Source of the DNA: Amoeboradix gromovi X-113 | Lineage: Eukaryota > Fungi > Sanchytriomycota | NCBI GenBank assembly: GCA_018985225.1 | Contig: JADGIF010000259.1 | Coordinates: forward strand, 1 to 12,589 | Length of the DNA stretch: 12,589 nt | Reading direction: 5' to 3' | Shown here: positions 1-12,589 of the stretch, in pieces | Layout: the number at the start of each line of letters is the position of its first letter | Numbering within the stretch: position 1 is the first letter of the stretch | Notes under the pieces: model-generated | What the model was told of the DNA's origin: nothing | The model's database searches: none | Seen by the model: the letters and a program-made list of their open reading frames with translations, nothing else | Position numbers and translations under genes: made by a program

Positions 1-96
1 GGTTTGAAAGAAGGACTTTTATTAATAATAGTATTTCCTCCTTATGGAGCACCTACTTTGAAAACGACTTGATCTAGTTTTTATATTTGGTGTCCC
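1..96 (-). mobile_element. Partial MITE copy (left arm, inverted), cut by the window start
   Basis: The reverse complement of 1-96 matches 8544-8639 at 92/96 nt and begins with the TIR GGGACACCAAATATAAAAACTAGA. Confidence 0.9.
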
Positions 97-252
97 GAAT
101 ACATTTTATCAACTACTCTTGAATTTGCTGTTGTTTTTGTTGATATTTTCACTGCTGTTAAAATTGCATAAAGTTTTATATATCTTCTTGATGAATTTTG
201 AATATGTACAAGTTTATTTTTATTTACCCCTCCCGTTTACTTTTTATAAAGC

Positions 253-3200
253 ATGTCCTCCATGCTTCCAAACAACGAAAATGAGCGAATTAAATTATTA
301 GATGAATTTTACTCCAAGTTGGAGCTGTCAAAGACCAATGGCACTTATTATCAAGATTTTCATACTAATTCGAATCTTTTGAATAATTATTTTGATTTTT
401 ATTATTCGATTCCCATGAACGACTTGCTGAAGATCGTTCGGATATACTATTCTGAATTATCTGTAAATCCGCTAAATCCTAATGTAGTCAAAGTCAGTTG
501 TCACATGTTGTGTTATTTATTAAAATACAAGGATGATGTCCCGATTAGTGAACTTTCTCTCGATTATTCTCCTTTTTATAAACTAATACAACTTTATTTC
601 TCTCCAAAATCCTCAGACAAGACCATATTGTTGTCTCAGGCCCATAAATCTGATTTATTGAAGGCTTTGATCGTTTGTAATCCTTATTTTATCAATATCA
701 AGCAGTCTTTATTCTTAACTCCTGCCATCAAATCTCCTGTTAAATATTTAACCTCTTTTGTACACTATCTGCTGTTTCTACCACCACGTAAGGATATGTC
801 TTTCATCTCACAAATTTTCAATTTTATCTCTAGTTCATTTTCACAAAGTCACACTGTGTTCCACCTGTTCTTGTACTTTCTAAAGAATTCCTGTGATCGA
901 TACATTTTAACGTTGCCGATTGATATCTTAAACTACTGCAACAGTAAATTGTTGGTTTTATTCAAATTTAAATATAAAACATCTTACTTATGCTCTTTCA
1001 CTAAAAGCCACCCATCTATATACAATTTAATTGCTTTTATATTTGTTAATCAATCATTTATTCCAAATCAATTAATACGAGCTCTGCATTTTAATCTAGC
1101 TCATAATGAACCCTGGACTGTTAAATATTCTACTTTTCTTCTTGAGCTGTGCTCTTATATTAGTGAATCTACAAGCTCATGTGCCAATGACATATCCTCT
1201 TTGTTGATTGACACTCTGCTAGTTTTAATTCATTCTAAAAGCAACAGTACCAGTCTCAATTCAATTAAATCTATTGAATACCTATGTACTTATGCTACTG
1301 TTCCGCTATTTGATACCCTATACGATGCTATCTTGGCCTCCATCTCTTCTTCAATGTATCCTAATCGTATTCTAGCAGGAGTTAATCTTTCTCACTGTTT
1401 AGTACCTCTTTTTGATTCCAAACTAGGCAGCGACTCTCCCATTGTAGCCAGTTTGTCCAAGTTGCTTTATATTTTAATTGATTTGATTGATCCCAACAAT
1501 TTCCGAATCTCTTTTTCAATATTTGTATTTATACATCATGTATCTTCATTACAGTTACCTTGCCTATATCCGCTCTTCACAGATCTTTCTGTTTTTCTCT
1601 ATTCGGCCATGGAATCCTGTTTAACATGTAATCATTCTTATTCAAAAATTGTACATCCTATTAATTCACTGCTAATTCCTGTGCTGTCTAATAGCTCTTT
1701 CATACATAACAAGTGCATCTTGTTCATTCAATCAATAGATCTACATTTGTTGAACAATGTTGTCACTATGCTACTGGCTCCTTTTAAATCTTTTAATAAC
1801 ACCTCTTTTATTAACCATTGCATATCCAACATCAGCGACCATTTTAATGCTACTGACCATTGTGTTTTGAGTAGTGAGTACAAGTCATGTTGGTATATCC
1901 ACTGCTTAATGTATATTTGTGATTATCATGACATTTCTACCACCAAAGCTTTAATTGGCAGAACAAAGGACACAGAGTGTATTCCTATATATTCCAGTTT
2001 AATTAGACTTCTATCACATCATTTACAAGAGTGCATCAAGGATATCATGACTGGAAACTCTACCGATTCGAGCAGCTCTAATATGCATGAACTGTTTTCG
2101 TGTATACAGGTATTGACTGCTAGTAACTCTACAAATACGAGTATTGCATCCAAGAAAAAGGCTTTGCTGTTCAAATTGTTTATGCCTCTTCATATTATAT
2201 ACAAAGCACCTAGTACACCTGATGATTCTACTCTAGTTATAGGCCAATTGCTAAGTGTTATGACTGAAAACATCCTCTCGATCCCTATGAATAAACACCT
2301 CTCTGCTATCATCAACAATGTTTGTAGTTACAAACCGTACTCATTCACCATGCATAATTCCCATCTGTTTGTTAAAAGCGTACCTATCAAATCGCACAGC
2401 AGTGCCTGCGATTACGTGTACAAGCAATCTGAGTATATCAGATTGTATTTGATCAATTTGAACTATTATAATAGATGCTTAATTCTGTTAAACAAGCAGG
2501 TAACTACTAGATACATTGACGATCTGGTGCTGATCATTCTGTATTATGCCATTAATTCACAAACTAAGCAAACCAGATGTTCACTGCAGGATGGGCTGGT
2601 ACACTTGAACATCTCCTTTAACTTTAAGACTGCGTTAATTTGCAAGTTCAGAGAGCTATTGAACTCAATCACAACTGACGCTAATGCAAGTACGGCAGTG
2701 GGTCCTAGTACCGCAACTTCAATTGCCCGCATAAAAGGTACAGTAGGAATTGACCGGGAAGCACTGCCGTATCTGCTGCATACGGTCAACAAAGAGTCAT
2801 TTTTAAAACACACTGATGCTGACTTTGATTTCAAACTGTTTGAGCTGATTGTTGGATTGGACACCAGACAAGATGAGCTAATCTCGTCCTTGATCAACAC
2901 AATGACTAGTGCACTTGCTATTAAGAAGGTGGTTTATTCTGTTGATATTGCAAGGCTTGCTGAGTTTATAATTAAAGAAGAGAAAACATTTATTAAACAA
3001 CTGATGATCAAATGGCTTAATATGTACATCAACACGAGCATAGAAAGTACAGTTATAACCAGCGATAGGACCTTGACTACTATAAACACATTGTGCTCAG
3101 ATCTGACTATAATTAGTTTACCAACAGTCTTGGATATCTTAAATGATTTATTGCGCGCAAGTCCCGTAGCAATAAGCAAATGACATAGTTGGCTGTATAA

Positions 3201-4456
3201 TAAAACTTTGCATGCAGTCAAGCAATAGATTGAACAGACAAGATATGGTAATTGAATGCATACAGCACAGATTTATATATTTTATACAGCTAATAAATAA
3301 TGACATAGATTTAGAAGTATTCGATGGAAGTGGTGAAATGATGGACAGATTGAATACAGAGGTAATGACAGGACTAGTACTTAGAAACGCAGGTATAAGC
3401 AGAGAGGTAGTAAATAGGGTTTGTAAGTATATAATAAACTCTACAGACGCAGGCTGGTCAAACTGGATCAAATGTATGTATACTGTAGCACGAAATGCAA
3501 TGGCGGATACTTTAGAAACCCTGCTAAAATACATAATTGAGGAGTTTAATAAATATAGCTGCTATACTCATTTTAGGTTAGCAAAGGTTATACTACTGAT
3601 AATGGAATATAGCAGTGCCCGAATAGATGTAGATATGGACCAGTATGAATTCAGTGATTATATGGAATATCGTAAAGTGTGGGTGAGGTATAGAGTGATC
3701 AGACACAAACAGTGGATAATTGACAACATGAACGGAAGCACTTATCCAGTGAATAGAATGAGTCTAAATTTGGACACCAAGGTAGTTTCTCCGTGCAATC
3801 CACATTCATTAAACAAGGATAACCATAGAATACGGAGTAATTGGTACTTGATAGTAAACAGTGTACATGACGATTACGACATATTTATAGAAGGTTTGAC
3901 AGAATATGTGCTCTACATACTCAAGTACAAGGACATGGAACTGATAAATAGTGTGAGAGAGTGTATAAAGGAAGAGAGTTTTAGCAGATTATTACTCAAC
4001 GTAGCGACTTACAGAAGTCAATATGCAGAACACAAGCATGATTATTATATAATGATGCAATACAATCTGTATTATAGACAATTTGATATGGAACTTGAGC
4101 TTCTAAAAGACATACATGGAGATATAGTAAATAACATGGAACTGAATGACAAGGTAGGAATAGAAATGATAAAATGTGCTAGTATAATATATCAGATTTA
4201 TTATACTAGGGGGATAGAATGGCAAGGAAAAGGAACAATAGAATGTTTAGCAGGTTTGCTAGCATACAAACTATATCCTGAGTGGGTAAAAAAGGGTGTT
4301 TATGAGATAATGGGAAACAGCAAGTACAAAAACCTGATTGCTAAAGTTATGGTACAATTTAGAAGAAAAGAAATGGAAAACAAAAAGATTGGGAATTTGG
4401 ATTATGAAATAGAAGAATTATATTTATATTTCCAAGGGGATTCTTACTTTGCTTGA
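253..4456 (+). CDS. PSME4: Proteasome activator PA200/Blm10 (PSME4) homolog, divergent and shortened (~1400 aa if the two ORFs 253-3183 and 3176-4456 are joined)
   Basis: Long helical, HEAT-like protein. LIDLIDPNNFRISFSIFVFI resembles the PA200 motif LPGIDPNDFxKxxxTFQFI. The C-terminus GDSYFA* matches the PA200/Blm10 YYA/YFA 20S-docking tail. Frame 1 is open to 3180 and frame 2 is open from 3176, so the ORFs are one gene with an intron, frameshift or indel. Confidence 0.8.
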
Positions 4457-5020
4457 CTCAGTAAATTCTATGCAGCATAAGCTATATTGCGCGCGCCAAT
4501 CAGCGAGTCTTGAGTCAAATTGCAGGGCCATCTAACTAGTGGTCTTCATGAACCAAATCTGAGAAATGGATTAGTGAATTAAGAGTATCCAGTGAGACAT
4601 AAGTATGAGCAAGGAATGATTGTCATGCGATGATCTACTCTGTATGAAGCCGTTTATTAATTTTATTCAATATACACTCATACCTGGAGATTTTTCAGTT
4701 TATCAGAAGTTGAATATAATTTCTATTTGAAATATAATCATGGTATTACATAGGTTAATCCTAAAAAACGAGATAGTTTATAAATGGCACGTTTGAACTC
4801 AAATGAATGAAGTGCGACACCTAAGAAACAACTGCCAAACTGGTTTAGTTACACTCAATAGCTGCAGCAATTAGCTGCCATACACGTAGGAGAACAATGC
4901 CACAGATAACCCTGTGCTATAATTAGTTTTAGAGCTCTTCTCGACATATTTTCATTTTACCGCTTAGCCTGGAGTGGTGTACAAATTAAGCTCAGAGCTT
5001 CATGGCTCCGTGATACGGCT

Positions 5021-5690
5021 ATGAAAGAATTGTTCGGTACAATTTTTGATTTATTAGGATTGCTGATATCAGCTCGTGTAAGTCTAGATCAATGGGAAAA
5101 TAGTGCAACGCTATTCAAAGGGTTGTATCACGATATCAATACACTATCAGATATTTTAGCCCCGCTTGCAGATCAGAATAATGAGCGATTGGATTTGAGA
5201 GCTGATATTCTTACTCGTACAGAGTCATCATTGAATGCCCTGATATCATTTCTAGAAGTGAGTGAGCAAAGCAATGTCTCTTTGATACATCTAGATGAAC
5301 TTGGCAACAAGTTTAGTCGAATATCACGGACACATCTGATGTTCAGGAAGATTGTTGAGAAAGCAGACGCCCGGGATATTCAATCAAAACTAGACAGGCT
5401 ATATGATACAAACAACTTCAACACGACTGGTATCCAGGAATTTATAGCCGTAGGATTGCTATTCCAAGGAGCGGGACTACTTTGGAAGAAAGAATTACAA
5501 GCTAGCCATGGAATGGTTCCAAAAGAGTGCAGAATTGCATACCTTAGATGCAGCATCGCGCATTGGGTACATGTACGAAAGAGGTCTATCGTTTGAAAAG
5601 GATTACAAATCGGCAATGTGCCGGTACAAAATGAGTTATCTTGAAGTATATTTGGATCATCTGGGAGAAGATTGCACTTCATGGATGTAA
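5021..5690 (+). CDS. N-terminal helical (HeLo-like/SesA/MLKL-4HB-like) domain followed by about two Sel1-like repeats; possibly 3'-truncated or pseudogenic
   Basis: The second frame reads RKNYKLAMEWFQKSAELHTLDAASRIGYMYERGLSFEKDYKSAMCRYKMS, a typical Sel1 pattern. The first 140 aa are amphipathic helices with a hydrophobic N-terminus. Removing 5450-5468 (GT..AG, 19 nt) joins both frames into 216 aa. The N-terminal domain family is inferred. Confidence 0.6.
5450..5468 (+). other. Candidate 19-nt spliceosomal intron
   Basis: GTAGGATTGCTATTCCAAG lies exactly at the frame change. Removal gives QEFIA|ERDYFGRKNYKLAMEWF. The AAG acceptor is non-optimal and a 1-nt indel is an alternative explanation. 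Confidence 0.45.
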
Positions 5691-6480
5691 TAAATCTTAA
5701 AGATGTTCTGAAATTATTTTCATTCATATCTTTCTAAACTGACTATCAGGTCATCCAGATAGTTATTTTTAAAGTACTCAAAAATAGGGACCATTGACTC
5801 ATAGGCAAGAATTATCACTCGGAATCATAGTTCTGCAACTTGCGCATAAACCAAGGGAGCCTGAGAGCTCAAAGCAATTCGAAAACCCCACATATGATGT
5901 GAATGGACGCCTCCAGAATCAAGACATTTGAATTGTATCAATAGCTCTTAAATTGCATCATCTGTGCATTTATGAGTCATCCTAGAAGAGTTCTGTTTAC
6001 ATATTAGCAACAATTTAAAGACCTGTAGTGATTTTCTGCATCCAAGGACACATATCTTGCAAAACTTCCTTGAAACTGAAGTTGAGCAGCAGTCTAATTG
6101 ATTAGCACCGTTGCTAGTTGCTTGTATTGCCTTATTAAAGCATTGGCTTGAAGCAATGACAAGAAAAATGTCTTTCAGTAATGGTCTTATAATAGTTGTG
6201 GGAAGTGTATAGGCAGTAAAAAGAGTAACCAACAAGATAATGATATAGATTCTTTTTGCCAAACTTTTCTGAGTACTGATAACTTTGGCCATCATAGACT
6301 CAATATAAGTCAAGCACTGCGAGGGTAAACTTCAAGACCATGAATAGAAACAATATAAGAGATTATTTACCGTCCCTGGCACTTCCATCTCACACCTAGG
6401 CAGTAATTCTGTGGCGCATTCCTGACACTGCTTAAGAAATCTCTCTAAATTGTAAATTGTTGTGGCTGAGTTACAAGATT
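5635..6480 (-). pseudogene. Degenerate multicopy gene relic, possibly a Cys-cluster (CxC/KDZ-type) transposase fragment
   Basis: Minus-strand fragments with stops and frameshifts occur in the order KQCQECATELLP, YDGQSY, SLDAENHYR(C/S)LNCC, loosely like CxC domains upstream of KDZ transposases. Part of it is duplicated at 9473-9685. Boundaries are approximate. Confidence 0.3.
5864..6078 (+). repeat. Dispersed direct repeat, copy A (215 bp)
   Basis: Matches 9473-9685 with 6 substitutions and one 2-nt indel. Confidence 0.95.
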
Positions 6481-6659
6481 GCAATACTCTGATCTACACA
6501 ATCACAAAATAATGAAGATCAGCATCTTTGAAGTTACCCTGCTGATTTCCATTGATCTCTCCTAGAGTGCAGTCTCAGATTTTTAGCTTAAAGATTGACT
6601 ATTTTCTTGAATAAATCATTTATCGCGAATTTTTATGCATTTTTGTATAGTTTCAAGAC

Positions 6660-6686
6660 TTTTCCAGATTTTCCAAATTTTCCAAA
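6660..6686 (+). repeat. Short tandem repeat (TTTTCCARA)x3
   Basis: TTTTCCAGA TTTTCCAAA TTTTCCAAA, read directly from the sequence. Confidence 0.8.
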
Positions 6687-7210
6687 TACCTTAAATACTC
6701 AATATTCTTCATTTTCGCAAATGGCAAATTGAATCAATGGATGTAATTCTAAACATGCCAAATCTAAAGAAATAACTAATAGCTGTAGTATACATTCATT
6801 AACGTTGAGGAACTAGTCCAAAGATGGAACTATTAGTTCCTTCCTAACGCGTAGAAAAAGATCAACGATAAATATCCTGTAAATCATTTATTTAATAATT
6901 CGCATGTGATTATTCTTACCACAATGCGAGATCTTAATAGTTATTATGCACGTACAAGGTGTGCCAATCTTGAGAAAACCAATTTAGAGAGCTGCGCTTG
7001 TTCCAATTGTCATTTGGGGATAGATATCATATGGCAGCAAGAACATACACATCAAGTATACGCATCCTTATTCAATCCCGCCTCAGAGTAGTGAAAGCGT
7101 GAGCAATCACTGCAACAGATTTACTAGAATTGCTAGTTTCTCAGAAATCAGGACTTTTAACGGGGATCTCAGTGGACTCGTTAGCAATGATAATTTTAAG
7201 GGATAAAACT

Positions 7211-7711
7211 ATGTCAACTCAAATCATGGATACATTTACTTTCCGAGCAACAATCATGGATTCCAATATTACAGTGCATGTAAATCTGTTTAATAACTAT
7301 AGGGTAGTCATGGATTTTAACTGGTTAAATACATTATATAATTTCGATGTTAATAGTTGGTCAGGTAGGGGATTAACCACACTTGTGACTTTCTTTTTAA
7401 ATCATAGTCCTAGAGATCCAAACGTATTTGGCTCGATTAGTCCAGTAGATGGAACTATTTCGGTTACTGGCCAGCAGAAAAAAGATATCATTTTACAAGC
7501 CTGTAAAGACATATTTCATGTAATTGACCAGGTTGTAGAAAAACACGGACGTAGTCTGTTGGACTACGCTGTATGGTATCGTGACAAAAGAGCAAATTAT
7601 AATCCTTCAGACTATGCACAATACATTACTCGAGAAGCATGCAATTGCATTGTACACGGGGAACTTTTAGCACCTAATGTCCTTTATGACTTGGTTCAAT
7701 ATGATAAATAG
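7211..7711 (+). CDS. Hypothetical protein (166 aa from ATG 7211; alternative ATG at 7187)
   Basis: Uninterrupted 500-nt ORF in AT-rich DNA, A-rich start context (AAAACTATG), globular composition and a T-rich 3' flank. No family recognised. Confidence 0.55.
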   Translation: MSTQIMDTFTFRATIMDSNITVHVNLFNNYRVVMDFNWLNTLYNFDVNSWSGRGLTTLVTFFLNHSPRDPNVFGSISPVDGTISVTGQQKKDIILQACKDIFHVIDQVVEKHGRSLLDYAVWYRDKRANYNPSDYAQYITREACNCIVHGELLAPNVLYDLVQYDK

Positions 7712-8089
7712 ATAAGGCTTATTTTATTTTTCTAAATCTTTGACTATTGAACGCTAGCATCATGTAATATCATTTACATTCTTCCGCACAAGTTCTGGTT
7801 CACAGCTTTTCCCGACATTGATACGCTTTTTTGACCAATGTTATCTTTATGACCGCGTATCAGTTAACTCTACTTGTTCTTAGATTTTTCATCCAATTTT
7901 AACTCTCATACAGCCATTCAGCAACTGTCTATCCATTGGATTCGATTACTGGCTCTTCTAAATATTCGGTTGATCGGTTCGCGGTGACAGGTACTTCTCG
8001 AATGGAGTCTTTTCAGATTCCAAACATTCAAGCTCGATTATTGGTTCCATTATACTCAGATATGAGTCTCCGCAGTTGTGTGTAGAGAA

Positions 8090-9111
8090 TACACCTTTGG
8101 CTAAATCCTAGTTGACCACATTCAGACCCGATCGACACTCTCACCTCTGGGACAAAGTAATCAGGAATTTTCATTCAATGATTAGTACTAAATCTGACTA
8201 TACTGTTATAGATATGTAATGGATTTCTGCATTTGTTGAACTTGAACAACTCAATGCTGTGGAACCTCTATATCTCATTCATACGTAACATACATACAAA
8301 TTCTTTTTGTCTTTAAATCTAACCACCGCGAGCACCCAATGTTTCCGCTATGCATCCGTATGTATCCATTTTTATTGGAAGCACGGATTTCTTCATGATT
8401 TCAGAGTGTTTTTTATTCCACCAATGATCTGTAATGGCAGACACGCACACAGCTTGTTGTATTGAGGCTCTTGATCAAATTCGACATTGATAAACCGCTT
8501 GATTCTATAAAAACAAAGTGCTGCAGCTTTGTGTATTGGATATGGGACACCAAATATAAAAACTAGACCAAGTCGTTTTTAAAGGAAGTGCTCCATAAGG
8601 AGGAAATACTATTATTAATAAAAGTCCTTCTTTCAAACCAATTTTCTTTCATTAATGTCATTCCTTTCTTTAAAATATATGAGGTCTCTGAGTGTCTAAT
8701 TAAAAGGTGCAATCAGTCAGATTGATTTAATTTAATTTAATTCACTGTCGGTTAATACACACTTGATATAATGATTCAAACTGTTTAAGAAAGTTATTCT
8801 AGTTTTTATATTTGATGTCCCAATTGTATATTGCTGCACACATACACAATATTCTTTGGTCCACTTATATACAGTTGTGTACGCTCGAAGACTTCGCATC
8901 CCTTGGGGTCTTCCTGTGTATAGCCATGCACTATCAGCTTGGGTAGGAACTCTTCAGGATCTTCATCGCGCCAAACAAGTGAATTGAGGCATCTACGTAT
9001 TTCCCATGTTAATACAACAGAGGAAAGTTTTTTGGCTGGATAGAACCGATTCAATAGCACGAAAGGCGTTCTTGACTCATGCGTCGGAAACTCCTTAAGC
9101 AGAACAACCAT
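8090..9111 (-). pseudogene. Ulp1/SENP (peptidase C48) SUMO-protease-like pseudogene interrupted by a MITE
   Basis: Motifs appear in the expected order: VVLTWEIRRCLNSLVWRDED (cf. ITRKDIQTLNHLNWLNDE), VYVCSNIQ|FTKL across the MITE (cf. VHAFNTFFFTKL), WWNKK, VLPI, HWVLAVVRFKDKK (catalytic His, 8341-8303) and SECG (catalytic Cys, ~8115-8126). The 3' part has stops and frameshifts. Confidence 0.75.
8544..8821 (+). mobile_element. Complete 278-bp MITE with 24-bp TIRs and a 10-bp TSD (Mutator-like)
   Basis: Left TIR GGGACACCAAATATAAAAACTAGA (8544-8567) matches the reverse complement of 8798-8821 at 23/24. Flanks TATTGGATAT (8534-8543) and AATTGTATAT (8822-8831) match 8/10. No coding capacity. Two more partial copies occur in the window. 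Confidence 0.9.
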
Positions 9112-9249
9112 CGGCTCGCCTGTACATAAACCATAATGGACTCTGCGAAGCCTTTCTATTTTATTGGTATTGCCAATAAACCATGATCATTTACAGTCTG
9201 TAAATACTTTGTTTTTCACATTTAGGCATTCCTTATAGTCAAGTAATAC

Positions 9250-9330
9250 TATTCAGCCATTCATGTTTGTTAAATCACCATATACGCTCGCAGCTGCGAA
9301 AGCATTGGATTCAATTGGAAAACCAACACT
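9250..9330 (-). pseudogene. Possible degenerate ankyrin-like repeat fragment
   Basis: GFPIESNAFAAASVYGDLTNM, followed after a 1-nt shift by WLNS, resembles GCPW..TF..AA..GNLENMKWL-type ankyrin repeats. Single repeat only. Confidence 0.3.
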
Positions 9331-9472
9331 CTAAAGAAAACATATCTATGGTATGTCGCCTTAAGCAATGACAATCCTATACGAAGAGGTCTAGCATAAA
9401 AAATTAAAAATTTTACTTCACTTTTCTTAGTATTTTTCATTTTACCAAAACTCTATGTTACTTTGGCTCGAA

Positions 9473-9685
9473 AGAGCTCAAAGCAATTCGAGAACCCCAC
9501 ATATGATGTGAATGGACGCCTCTAGAATCAAGACATTAGAATTGTATCAATAGCTCTTAAACTGCATCATCTGTGCATTTATGAGTCATCCTAGAAGAGT
9601 TCTGTTTACATATTAGCAACAGTTTAAACACCTGTAGTGATTTTCTGCATCCAAGGACACATCTTGCAAAACTTCCTTGAAACTG
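9473..9685 (+). repeat. Dispersed direct repeat, copy B (213 bp), ending 3 nt before the DIS3 ATG
   Basis: About 96% identical to 5864-6078 and followed by GGG-ATG. Confidence 0.95.
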
Positions 9686-9688
9686 GGG

Positions 9689-12497
9689 ATGTTGTGTAAA
9701 TTAGAAACCAAGTTCATAAAATCAAAGAGAACCAATAGGGTTGGCAAGGTGGTACGAGAAATATATTTGAGGGAAGACATAGCTTGCGGGATAGCAAGCT
9801 GTCCGACTTGCAAGCAAGATTTTGGTGGAATTGGAAATAATATTATAATTCTAAGCGCGAAAGTGATTGAAAAACAAATTGATGCGTTAGAGAGTGAATT
9901 TATGAATAACATGATAATACCAATGTCTCAGCTAGATTTGTTATCAAATGTAATTAAAAAGAGAATCATGAACATAATCGAGCAGCCTAATAGAAAGTGT
10001 TTGCTATATCCTGACAAATTTTTTCTAAAGGTATATATCGAGCGGGAGCCTACCGAATCTAAAGAGGCATTTGAGTTTCGTAAAATGGAGAAATTATTGG
10101 AATACTACAGGCAGCACTGCAAATACATTAGCAACCTCACTAATGTGGATCTTAGTGTACACTTAATCGCAGAGTCCACGAGTGACAGTATTATTACACT
10201 TTATGATTATGCTCAGTTGATGAATTTGGACCAAGTGCTGGATCTGATATCTAATAGTGTTCATGTTGATAGTGACTTTGAACATAAGCCTCACGTTACT
10301 GAAGAGGAGATGTATAAGATGATTGAATCCAACAAAGCTTTTATCGGTAAACTGCAAGTTTCTAACTACAACTGTTTTCAAGGATCCATTTCAATTGAAA
10401 ATAAAAACATTGTATCTAAAATGATAATGGTAGTCGGTATGGAAGATATGAATAGAGCCGTTAACGGTGATTTGGTCGCTGTGGAGATTTACGACTGTTT
10501 TAATCTTATGGACGAGACCATAAACGATGATAACAATGCGGTGGAGCAATCGGCAGAATCTTCTGAGAAAGTAGAGCTGAATATTCCCAAGGGAAGAATT
10601 ATTCATATAATCAAAAGAAATCCAAAGAATCATGTTTGCTCATTAGATGTTTCTAAACTAGACCCATCTCAATTAAATAACAAGAACGGAGTTGTTGTAC
10701 CCTGTATTCCTGTTGATAAGAAGATTCCTCGCATATATATTCGTACAAGACAATTAAAGCATCTTCGAGGTAAGCGAATTATTGTGTCAATAGATGACTG
10801 GAATATTAAGAACCGATTCCCATTAGGTCATTACGTTGAAACCATTGGAAGAATCGATGATAAGGAGAGTGAAGTTATGGCTATTCTATATGACCATGAA
10901 ATCAACAATGAGCCATTTAGTAAAAATAGCTTGGATGAAATGCCATCACCCTCATGGACTCCATCGATTGAGGACTATACTGATAGAGCTGTTTGGGGTT
11001 TTGACCCACCTAACAATGCTAAGCATTTAAAAGATATATCTAATAGCAGCGTATTGGTATGTAGTATTGATCCACCTGGTTGTACAGATATTGATGACAC
11101 TCTACATTGCTGCATCATAAATGAAAATTTAGTCCAAATTGGTGTACACATCGCTGATGTTACTCATTTTGTAAAACATTTGTCAACTACAGATTTAGAG
11201 GCCGCAAAGAGAGGCACAACTGTTTATTTGGTAGATAGAAGAATTGACATGTTGCCCGGTGTACTAGGTAGCAACATTTGTTCATTGAAACAAGATTTGC
11301 CAAGATTGGCATTCTCAGTTGTATGGGAAATGAATCCTCACACTTTAAAAATCCATAAAACTACTTTCTGCAAATCGGTTATTAAGAGTGTCGGGTCATT
11401 TACCTATGATCAAGCTCAATCTAAACTAGACTCCAATAGCAATGATCCTATTACTACATCATTAAAGATGTTAAATTCTGTAGCTCGGCTATTAAGGCAG
11501 AGAAGAATTCAGAATGGCGCATTAACACTTGCTAGTCCTGAAGTTCGATTTAAGCTAGAGAATGAAGCCCAGGACCCCGTTGATTTAGAGCTTAAGGAAT
11601 TAAAAGAGGCCAACCAGTTAGTAGAGGAGTATATGTTGATGGCTAATATAACGGTAGCGGATAGGTTATATGAGTACTTTCCATCTTTTGCATTGTTGAG
11701 ATGCCATCCTAAACCACCAGAAGATAATTTTAAGCAAGTGCAACAGTCATTAAATAAATTTGGATTCAAGGTTGATGTTAAGACATCAAAAGCGTTGGCA
11801 GACTCCTTGAATAGTTTGGTTATTCCAAATGATCCTTACTTTAATACTCTTACTAGAATTCTAGGTAACATGAATTAATTTAGTCACTCGTTGTATGTAT
11901 CAAGCCAAATACTTCTCCAGCGGAAGTGTTAGTTATGATGGATTTATGCATTATGGTTTGAGTTGCCCAATTTACACACATTTTACTTCTCCTATACGTA
12001 GATACGCGGATGTCATAGTGCATCGATTATTAGAATCTACAATTACGATGAACGCAGTGCCCAAAGAGCTTAAAGATAAACAGCTGATGAAAGAATTGTG
12101 TGATACAATAAACTACAGAAATCAACAGGCACAACATGCCAGCAGACAAAGTGTAGTATTATACACTCATATTTATTTCAGAGGAAAAGACATTCAGGAA
12201 GATGCATATATAATGAAGATAACAAAGAATGGAATAGTGATACTGATTCCCAAATATGGATTAGAGAGTGTAGCATATTTTGATGAATCGCAAATGATGA
12301 GTAGCAAAGTTGACTTAGAACAGCAGATGATCGAAGATGGGGAAGGAAATAAATTAAGACAATTGGAGAAGGTGAAAGTAAAAGCAGAAGTAGTCAACAC
12401 CAGTACAAATAAAGACATTCCAAATTGGAAGTTAGAGCTAACCATATTAGAACCACTCACGAATCTATTCAAAAGCAGGAAGATAAGAAAAATATAA
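9689..12497 (+). CDS. DIS3: Exosome catalytic subunit DIS3/RRP44, join(9689..11864,11884..12497), 929 aa
   Basis: [22 protein letters not shown] (CR3), [12 protein letters not shown] (CSD), [59 protein letters not shown] (RNB) and a C-terminal S1 domain. Splicing restores [17 protein letters not shown]. The start is placed at ATG 9689, not TTG 9677. Confidence 0.97.
11865..11883 (+). other. 19-nt GT-AG spliceosomal intron (phase 1) in DIS3
   Basis: GTAACATGAATTAATTTAG contains the in-frame stop, a TTAAT branch-like element and a TTTAG acceptor. Removal restores the frame and the conserved RIL-x-TRCM-x-QA-x-YF motif with no gap. Confidence 0.93.
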
Positions 12498-12503: not shown

Positions 12504-12510
12504 TGCATAT

Positions 12511-12589
12511 GAGACATCAAATATAAAAACTGGACTAACTTTCAGTAACAGCTTGGAACATTATTTCAGCTTTATTACTTTATGGATTT
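12511..12589 (-). mobile_element. Partial, more diverged MITE copy (right arm, inverted), cut by the window end
   Basis: GAGACATCAAATATAAAAACTGGACTAACTTTC... matches the reverse complement of 8764-8821 at 48/58 nt. It starts 13 nt after the DIS3 stop. Confidence 0.8.

What the first reader, a model, noticed from the sequence alone, without database searches (positions are those of the whole stretch)
253..4456. Strand skew flips inside the PA200 gene and shifts the protein composition with it
Seen: the sense strand is T/C-rich in the 5' part and A/G-rich in the 3' part. Hand counts of 60-nt lines: 781-840 A16 T25 G5 C14; 1501-1560 A15 T29 G4 C12; 3361-3420 A23 T12 G19 C6; 4321-4380 A30 T13 G11 C6. 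Synonymous usage follows (Ile ATT/ATC to ATA, Ser TCT to AGT/AGC). The N-half is rich in F/L/S/P/H and the C-half in K/E/M/R/G/D. The crossover is roughly 2400-3000. Established: transcription-linked bias keeps one sign along a gene, whereas a negative-to-positive GC-skew switch marks bidirectional replication origins. Inference: a fixed kb-scale origin or strand-specific mutational domain is centred in this gene and is strong enough to rewrite a housekeeping protein. DIS3 also seems to oscillate (purine-rich ends, G5/C16 at 11401-11460).
Basis: partly seen in the sequence, partly recalled or inferred. Interest (0 to 1): 0.75.

Follow-up and report, generated by a model that had tools for sequence, protein, structure and literature searches.

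The report
Mid-gene purine flip remodels fungal protein
In a long gene of a fast-evolving fungus-like microbe, the DNA strand switches from pyrimidine-rich to purine-rich near the middle and the protein's amino acids follow; this is likely an extreme form of a start-to-end base gradient already published for fungal genes, not a replication origin.

Summary
The flip is real. The five hand counts are exact. At 461 fourfold-degenerate sites the purine share rises from 0.38 to 0.63 near 2520 (permutation p 0.001), and Ile, Ser and Arg codons follow. It is one gene: two homologues are single ORFs covering both halves, though the window copy has a +1 frame break near 3160-3190. One homologue (31% identical) has the same amino-acid gradient, again crossing at mid-protein. 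The other is nearly flat, so the protein does not require it. An origin fits poorly, since known replication skews move G with T, whereas here G moves with A. Unusual here are the size and the AT flip. Against my reading, DIS3 shows only the 3' purine part, and only two genes could be tested (no genome held). Forks converging mid-gene from flanking origins is not excluded. The PA200 label is likely but weakly supported. No earlier scan finding matched.

The parts
253..3183 (+). 5' reading frame (976 aa) of a likely PA200/Blm10-type HEAT-repeat gene
   Evidence: ORF; 31% identical over 814 columns to the N-part of P0123, pairwise E 3e-68
3155..3188 (+). +1 frame break: likely a very short intron (13-34 nt candidates) or a one-base frameshift
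   Evidence: 11 stop-free GT/GC..AG joins of at most 70 nt listed; a 16-nt intron and a one-base skip fit P0123 about equally (scores 86 and 85), joins of 49-61 nt fit worse (70-72); run X1 shows no indel here
3176..4456 (+). 3' reading frame, ending in SYFA, a Y-phi type proteasome-binding tail
   Evidence: matches P0123 943-1349 (E 4e-31) and P0124 1136-1277 (E 9e-9); all three end in QGDSYFA
110..252 (+). 5' flank, T-rich like the 5' half of the gene
   Evidence: A36 T69 G17 C21, purine share 0.37
253..2309 (+). Pyrimidine-rich zone of the sense strand
   Evidence: fourfold purine share 0.38 before the step; all-base minimum 0.35 at 1303-1652
2310..2730 (.). Crossover zone, containing the gene midpoint (2354)
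   Evidence: step interval 2310-2580; cumulative minima 2373, 2625, 2728
2731..4456 (+). Purine-rich zone of the sense strand, strongest next to the stop codon
   Evidence: fourfold purine share 0.63 after the step; all-base 0.65 at 4103-4452, 0.53 in the bin after the stop
9689..12497 (+). DIS3/RRP44 gene with a 19-nt intron at 11865-11883; internal comparison gene
   Evidence: Pfam RNB, OB_Dis3, Rrp44_S1 above cut-off; spliced frame gives 930 aa without stops
12018..12497 (+). Purine-rich 3' end of DIS3
   Evidence: fourfold sites from 12000: A23 T4 G11 C8; step at 12018, permutation p 0.013

Best explanation
The gene shows a real pyrimidine-to-purine switch near its midpoint at silent and coding positions, most likely an extreme form of the gene-polarised mutational gradient published for fungi, likely set by the two ends of the transcription unit rather than by an origin inside it. 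Inferred mechanism: strand-asymmetric damage or repair favours T and C on the sense strand near the promoter and A and G near the 3' end. In this fast-evolving lineage a weakly constrained HEAT-repeat protein has drifted towards that equilibrium, swapping residues by codon content (L, F, S, P in the N-half; M, V, G, E, R in the C-half) while keeping its hydrophobic share. Shown: the switch, its reach into silent sites, its conservation in one homologue and near-absence in another. Inferred: that it is mutational, that transcription sets it, and that it is genome-wide.
For: Switch at fourfold sites. Same direction as the published fungal pattern: C-biased 5', G-biased 3', affecting amino acids and fourfold sites, strongest at the stop codon, GC and AT skews positively correlated (PMC3315797). 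Crossover is at mid-gene in both the window (0.54 of protein length) and P0123 (0.51), although they are 31-32% identical. The gradient persists in columns where those two differ (C minus N purine index 0.25 and 0.33, p 2e-6 and 1e-8), so it is maintained and not only inherited. P0124 is nearly flat (0.084, p 0.065). Hydrophobic share is unchanged between halves (0.43 vs 0.41). Purine share peaks at the stop and drops after it (0.65 to 0.53). The 5' flank is T-rich. DIS3 also ends purine-rich.
Against: DIS3 lacks a pyrimidine-rich 5' part (first 500 nt purine share 0.59 at fourfold sites; halves not different, p 0.36). The paper reports flat AT skew along genes, here it flips (vs 6). Fourfold sites fit a step slightly better than a ramp (2.7 log units; not significant, p 0.18). 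Columns invariant in all three homologues also show a gradient (0.44, p 4e-4); conditioning on identity biases this, but it leaves an older protein-level component open. Only 2 genes of this organism could be tested, and no DNA of the homologues was available. The flanks contain recent mobile or duplicated DNA, so the drop after the stop is weak evidence.
Confidence: 0.55

Rival explanations
1. Replication with origins in the flanking intergenic regions: forks meet in the middle of this long gene, so the crossover would be a fixed termination zone and each half would carry a leading- or lagging-strand bias of purine/pyrimidine type.
For: Crossover interval contains the gene midpoint. The fourfold profile is compatible with two plateaus. 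In yeasts the leading strand is C-rich, which gives the GC direction seen here. DIS3's different pattern could follow from different origin spacing.
Against: Yeast leading strands are also A-rich, whereas the C-rich half here is T-rich; the average yeast jump is about 8% against GC and AT skew changes of about 0.74 and 0.55 here (computed). It would need origins a few kb apart firing in nearly every cycle and kept across 69% protein divergence (inference).
Confidence: 0.2
2. One reading: a fixed bidirectional replication origin lies in the centre of the gene.
For: Negative-to-positive GC skew is the bacterial and human origin polarity (passages); a step fits as well as a ramp.
Against: At human and yeast origins G and T move together; here A moves with G, so the two terms of the usual origin index largely cancel. 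Yeast skews decay away from the origin; here all-base skew is weakest at the crossover and strongest 1-2 kb away. The polarity is opposite to that of the three yeasts tested.
Confidence: 0.08
3. Selection on the protein or the mRNA (amino-acid needs of the two halves, or transcript-level selection such as the CTP-limitation idea of PMC3315797) makes the gradient.
For: Invariant columns show a gradient; P0124 has a weak trend of the same sign; mRNA-level selection is one of the paper's two hypotheses.
Against: Protein-level selection cannot explain fourfold sites or the Ile, Ser and Arg codon switches. P0124 does without the gradient. None of 111 full-length DIS3 orthologues has a half-to-half difference above 0.034, against 0.209 and 0.254 here (a different protein, so only a scale). 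C-avoidance would not explain the A/T flip.
Confidence: 0.12
4. Two genes, a chimeric assembly or a fusion of DNA of different origin.
For: Frame break near 3180; contig depth in run X1 falls from about 59 to 39 at 3256, and X1 has side branches at 1949 and 3256.
Against: P0123 and P0124 are single ORFs colinear with both halves, and P0123 has the same gradient. The crossover lies 500-800 nt upstream of the break, inside one ORF. X1 contigs tile 67-1978, 1949-2677, 2683-3256 and 3227-4822 with one 5-nt hole and no joint listed.
Confidence: 0.04

Closest known systems
Opposite 5'/3' GC skew in fungal genes (McLean and Tirosh 2011, PMC3315797)
   Same: C-biased start, G-biased end, sign change inside the gene, present at fourfold sites, alters amino-acid use, 3' bias strongest at the stop codon, extends into the 5' flank.
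   Different: There AT skew is flat and the amino-acid effect was measured in the terminal 20 residues; here AT skew flips too, the zones span about 2 kb each and whole protein halves are remodelled. There 33% of C. albicans genes show it individually; the share in this genome is unknown.
Replication-associated skew in S. cerevisiae, K. lactis, C. albicans, L. kluyveri (PMC3459929, PMC3590768)
   Same: Sign switch in third-position skew; C-rich leading strand would match the GC direction if the gene centre were a termination zone.
   Different: Amino/keto type (C+A leading, G+T lagging), about 8% on average, replicons of about 45 kb; here purine/pyrimidine type, several times larger, on a 4-kb scale.
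PA200/Blm10 proteasome activators
   Same: Long helical-repeat protein; C-terminal Y-phi tail (SYFA; yeast Blm10 SYYA); the best structural match of the C-terminal model is the C-terminus of Blm10, end to end.
   Different: About 1390 aa against 2143 in yeast Blm10; no Pfam or PDB sequence match; the structural match is tied with unrelated HEAT proteins.

Membership tests
Fungal 5'/3' opposite GC skew | Coding strand C-biased at 5' end, G-biased at 3' end | tested here: met
   GC skew -0.31 in 603-1652, +0.43 in 4103-4452. DIS3 meets only the 3' part.
Fungal 5'/3' opposite GC skew | Present at fourfold-degenerate sites and in amino-acid use | tested here: met
Fungal 5'/3' opposite GC skew | Extends into promoter and 3' UTR | tested here: inconclusive
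   5' flank purine 0.37 but GC skew only -0.11 on 38 bases; 4457-4620 purine 0.57; flanks are short and near repeats
Fungal 5'/3' opposite GC skew | AT skew flat along the gene (a reported property) | tested here: not met
   A/T flips at fourfold sites, p 9e-5; hence filed as a variant that works like it, not as the same pattern
Fungal 5'/3' opposite GC skew | Genome-wide average over genes | not testable with these tools
   No genome held; searches gave no further DNA of this lineage
Replication-origin skew jump | GC and TA skews jump in the same direction | tested here: not met
   GC skew rises by about 0.74 while TA skew falls by about 0.55 at fourfold sites; criterion
Replication-origin skew jump | Sharp jump, decaying with distance | tested here: inconclusive
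   Step and ramp not separable at fourfold sites (p 0.18); all-base skew grows away from the crossover
Replication-origin skew jump | Mapped initiation site | not testable with these tools
   Needs Okazaki, nascent-strand or ORC/MCM data
PA200/Blm10 | C-terminal Y-phi (HbYX-type) tail | tested here: met
   SYFA in all three homologues; Blm10 ends SYYA and the motif is conserved in PA200 (10.1101/2021.04.28.441858)
PA200/Blm10 | HEAT-repeat fold matching Blm10 | tested here: inconclusive
   Model of P0124's last 149 aa (pLDDT 59.6): rank 1 of 48,161 chains is 4v7o_A6 1961-2143, Z 6.6, rmsd 5.1, 133 aligned, tied with Efr3 and importin-4. Atlas: MMS19-type HEAT clusters first, a Blm10 cluster at rank 17.
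PA200/Blm10 | Sequence match to PA200 profiles or solved chains | tested here: inconclusive
   No PA200 hit in Pfam or PDB sequences; the lineage is long-branched, so absence is weak
PA200/Blm10 | Binds and opens the 20S core | not tested
   No proteasome subunit of this organism was at hand

The most novel reading that the evidence does not exclude
An undescribed long-branch fungal or fungus-related lineage has a very strong purine/pyrimidine strand bias that radiates inward from both ends of long genes, possibly because replication starts between genes and forks meet mid-gene, so a protein's amino acids are set by distance from the gene ends. The published fungal gradient would then be partly a replication footprint, and this lineage the system in which to test it.
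Probability: 0.2. Interest if true: 0.7.

Novelty: new variant of a known kind. Interest (0 to 1): 0.38.

Why it matters
The cause of the opposite 5'/3' skew in fungal genes was left open in 2011, where the signal is modest and averaged over genes. A lineage in which one gene shows it at p 0.001, with a matching AT flip and a 14-point shift in amino-acid classes relative to a homologue, would make the cause testable by fork mapping, transcript mapping or mutation spectra. It also matters practically: position-dependent composition bias likely helps hide orthologues from profile searches (this protein has no Pfam hit) and can mislead trees (the DIS3 of this clade fails the composition test). 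If the pattern proves confined to a few genes, it is a curiosity within a known phenomenon.

Tried and rejected
No whole genome is held. The repeat-motif scan of metagenome contigs returned 7 loci, none from this organism. Related-locus scans of prokaryote genomes and viral contigs found no relative. No RNA holder listed, so the frame break is unresolved. Homologue searches: ORF1 found only itself; the C-terminal profile found only the three known proteins. Single-sequence fold of ORF2 was unusable (pLDDT 36). Foldseek on the C-terminal model gave no match at E 0.001. The Atlas search with ORF2 gave only hits under 0.9. DIS3 exon-2 counts were read in the wrong frame and are discarded; one search replaces them. 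DIS3 protein shows no purine-index gradient beyond 117 orthologues (all 13 bins within 2.3 SD). The region 4600-9600 is mostly repeats and broken frames and was not used for skew tests. Earlier scan findings: none matched; two phage notes did not bear on this. Paper searches for an AT-flipping or purine-type intragenic gradient found nothing beyond PMC3315797; subscription journals are mostly not covered.

Full report
Observation. The five hand counts are exact. GC and AT skew are negative over 1-2500 and positive over about 2750-4700. At fourfold-degenerate sites, codons before 2000 have A56 T91 G23 C41 and codons from 3212 have A52 T27 G19 C7 (Fisher p 9e-5 and 2e-3). Over all 461 fourfold sites a logistic ramp gives p 2e-6, and the best step lies at 2520 (interval 2310-2580; purine share 0.383 to 0.630; permutation p 0.001). 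Step and ramp cannot be told apart (p 0.18). Ile, Ser and Arg codon families switch as stated. F, L, S, P are enriched 5' and E, M, R, G 3'; H, K and D are not significantly different. All-base purine share in 350-nt bins runs 0.45, 0.39, 0.41, 0.35, 0.43, 0.46, 0.50, 0.53, 0.57, 0.60, 0.58, 0.65 and then 0.53 past the stop.

The gene. It lies in two frames, 253-3183 and 3176-4456. A search of 1.84 billion representatives with the second frame found 3 proteins: itself, P0123 (1349 aa) and P0124 (1277 aa). Both are single ORFs that also align with the first frame (31% identity to P0123), so this is one gene. A 16-nt intron or a one-base shift fits P0123 best; no RNA run is listed. Run X1 tiles the gene with four contigs, one 5-nt hole and no indel at the break; X1 may be the window's own sample, so it is not independent. 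The PA200 name rests on the SYFA tail (Y-phi motif) and on a C-terminal model whose top match among 48,161 chains is the C-terminus of Blm10, end to end, at Z 6.6, rmsd 5.1, 133 aligned, tied with other HEAT proteins. Pfam and PDB sequence searches gave no PA200 hit. I treat it as likely PA200.

The organism. DIS3 is 76% and 60% identical to two unnamed proteins and 33-48% to named fungal and animal ones. A quick tree of 42 rows (41 of the 119 other hits listed, chosen for spread) puts the three on a very long branch in a set with Rozella and unnamed sequences; long-branch attraction is possible and the careful search did not finish. Fungus-like is as far as this goes.

Is the gradient in the protein or the DNA? 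I scored each residue by the purine content of its first two codon positions. C-part minus N-part is 0.287 in the window, 0.348 in P0123 and 0.084 in P0124 (p 6e-13, 1e-15, 0.065). F+L+S+P+H fall from 43.9% to 20.3% in the window and from 37.9% to 31.5% in P0124. The cumulative minimum is at 0.54 and 0.51 of protein length in the window and P0123. In the 547 of 823 aligned columns where these two differ, both still show the gradient, so the pressure has kept acting. Against P0124, differing columns are purine-poorer in the N-part (134 of 243, p 0.12, for the window; 150 of 259, p 0.013, for P0123) and purine-richer in the C-part (97 of 158 and 105 of 175, p 0.005 and 0.01). Hydrophobic share is unchanged between halves. 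Against this, the 151 columns invariant in all three also show a gradient.

DIS3. Fourfold purine share is 0.59, 0.42, 0.45 and 0.74 along the gene; only the 3' rise is significant, and the cited C-rich line is within chance. So it shares the purine-rich end but not the pyrimidine-rich start. Its upstream 213 nt are a 96% duplicate of 5864-6078, which suggests recent rearrangement, but that is an excuse I could not test.

Comparison with what is known. PMC3315797 (read: parts 1-3 of 4, the whole main text; supplement not read, and its fourfold-site figure S1 bears on the comparison) shows C-biased 5' ends and G-biased 3' ends in most of the fungi analysed, at fourfold sites and in amino-acid use, significant in 33% of C. 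albicans genes, with flat AT skew; it offers mutational and adaptive explanations without deciding. PMC3459929 (12 of 26 passages found) and PMC3590768 (12 passages) show that replication skew in four yeasts is C+A on the leading strand, about 8% on average, and that the human origin index adds GC and TA skews. Here GC skew rises by about 0.74 and TA skew falls by about 0.55, a purine/pyrimidine pattern unlike either. PMC2817419 was seen as abstract and outline only and is not relied on. Searches found no report of an AT-flipping, gene-wide version.

Mechanism. Best reading (0.55): a gene-end-polarised, strand-asymmetric mutational gradient, likely tied to transcription, in extreme form. These two predict the same picture for one gene, because a pyrimidine-then-purine pattern reads the same on both strands (inference). 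Selection gets 0.12, a central origin 0.08, a chimera 0.04.

Verdict. Real, not an artefact, and a strong variant of a published phenomenon. The scale, the AT flip and the remodelling of a whole protein are what is new; the evidence is one gene, two homologous proteins and one partly discordant neighbour. Interest 0.38.

Noticed in passing
window 1-96, 8544-8822, 12510-12568; L001-L007: A high-copy element end beginning GGG (depth in X1 hundreds of times the gene's) shares its 24-nt terminal motif with elements inserted at varied sites in 7 metagenome loci. L003 encodes an NCLDV major capsid protein and a YqaJ protein, L002 a ribonucleotide reductase, L006 an Erv1/Alr protein. Likely a transposon family shared between this host lineage and a giant virus; only the terminal 26-43 nt match.
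   Followed up: partly
window 3256 and 4798; window 1949: Run X1 holds a contig that joins 3256 to the sequence found at 4798, with a 5-nt microhomology, which would drop the last 1.2 kb of the gene, and another that enters at 1949 from foreign sequence. Possibly a partial duplicate or a structural allele of 1949-3256; 4 of the 5 SNPs there are synonymous.
   Followed up: partly
window 4910-5690: A Sel1-repeat gene with a frame break near 5465; other copies in X1 carry an extra base there, and depth indicates a multi-copy family.
   Followed up: partly
window 5864-6078 and 9473-9685: A 215-nt, 96% identical duplicate that ends just before the DIS3 start codon.
   Followed up: no
window 11865-11883: 19-nt GT-AG intron in DIS3; P0002 ends at the matching place, which suggests the intron is conserved.
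   Followed up: partly
window 6590-7170: A second high-copy repeat (depth about 13,000 in X1, many divergent copies) overlapping the start of an unannotated 174-aa ORF at 7187-7711.
   Followed up: no
window 227-235 and 9685-9688: A C-run lies about 20 nt before the PA200-like start and a G-run directly before the DIS3 start, reminiscent of CCC/GGG start-proximal motifs in microsporidia (recalled, not tested).
   Followed up: no
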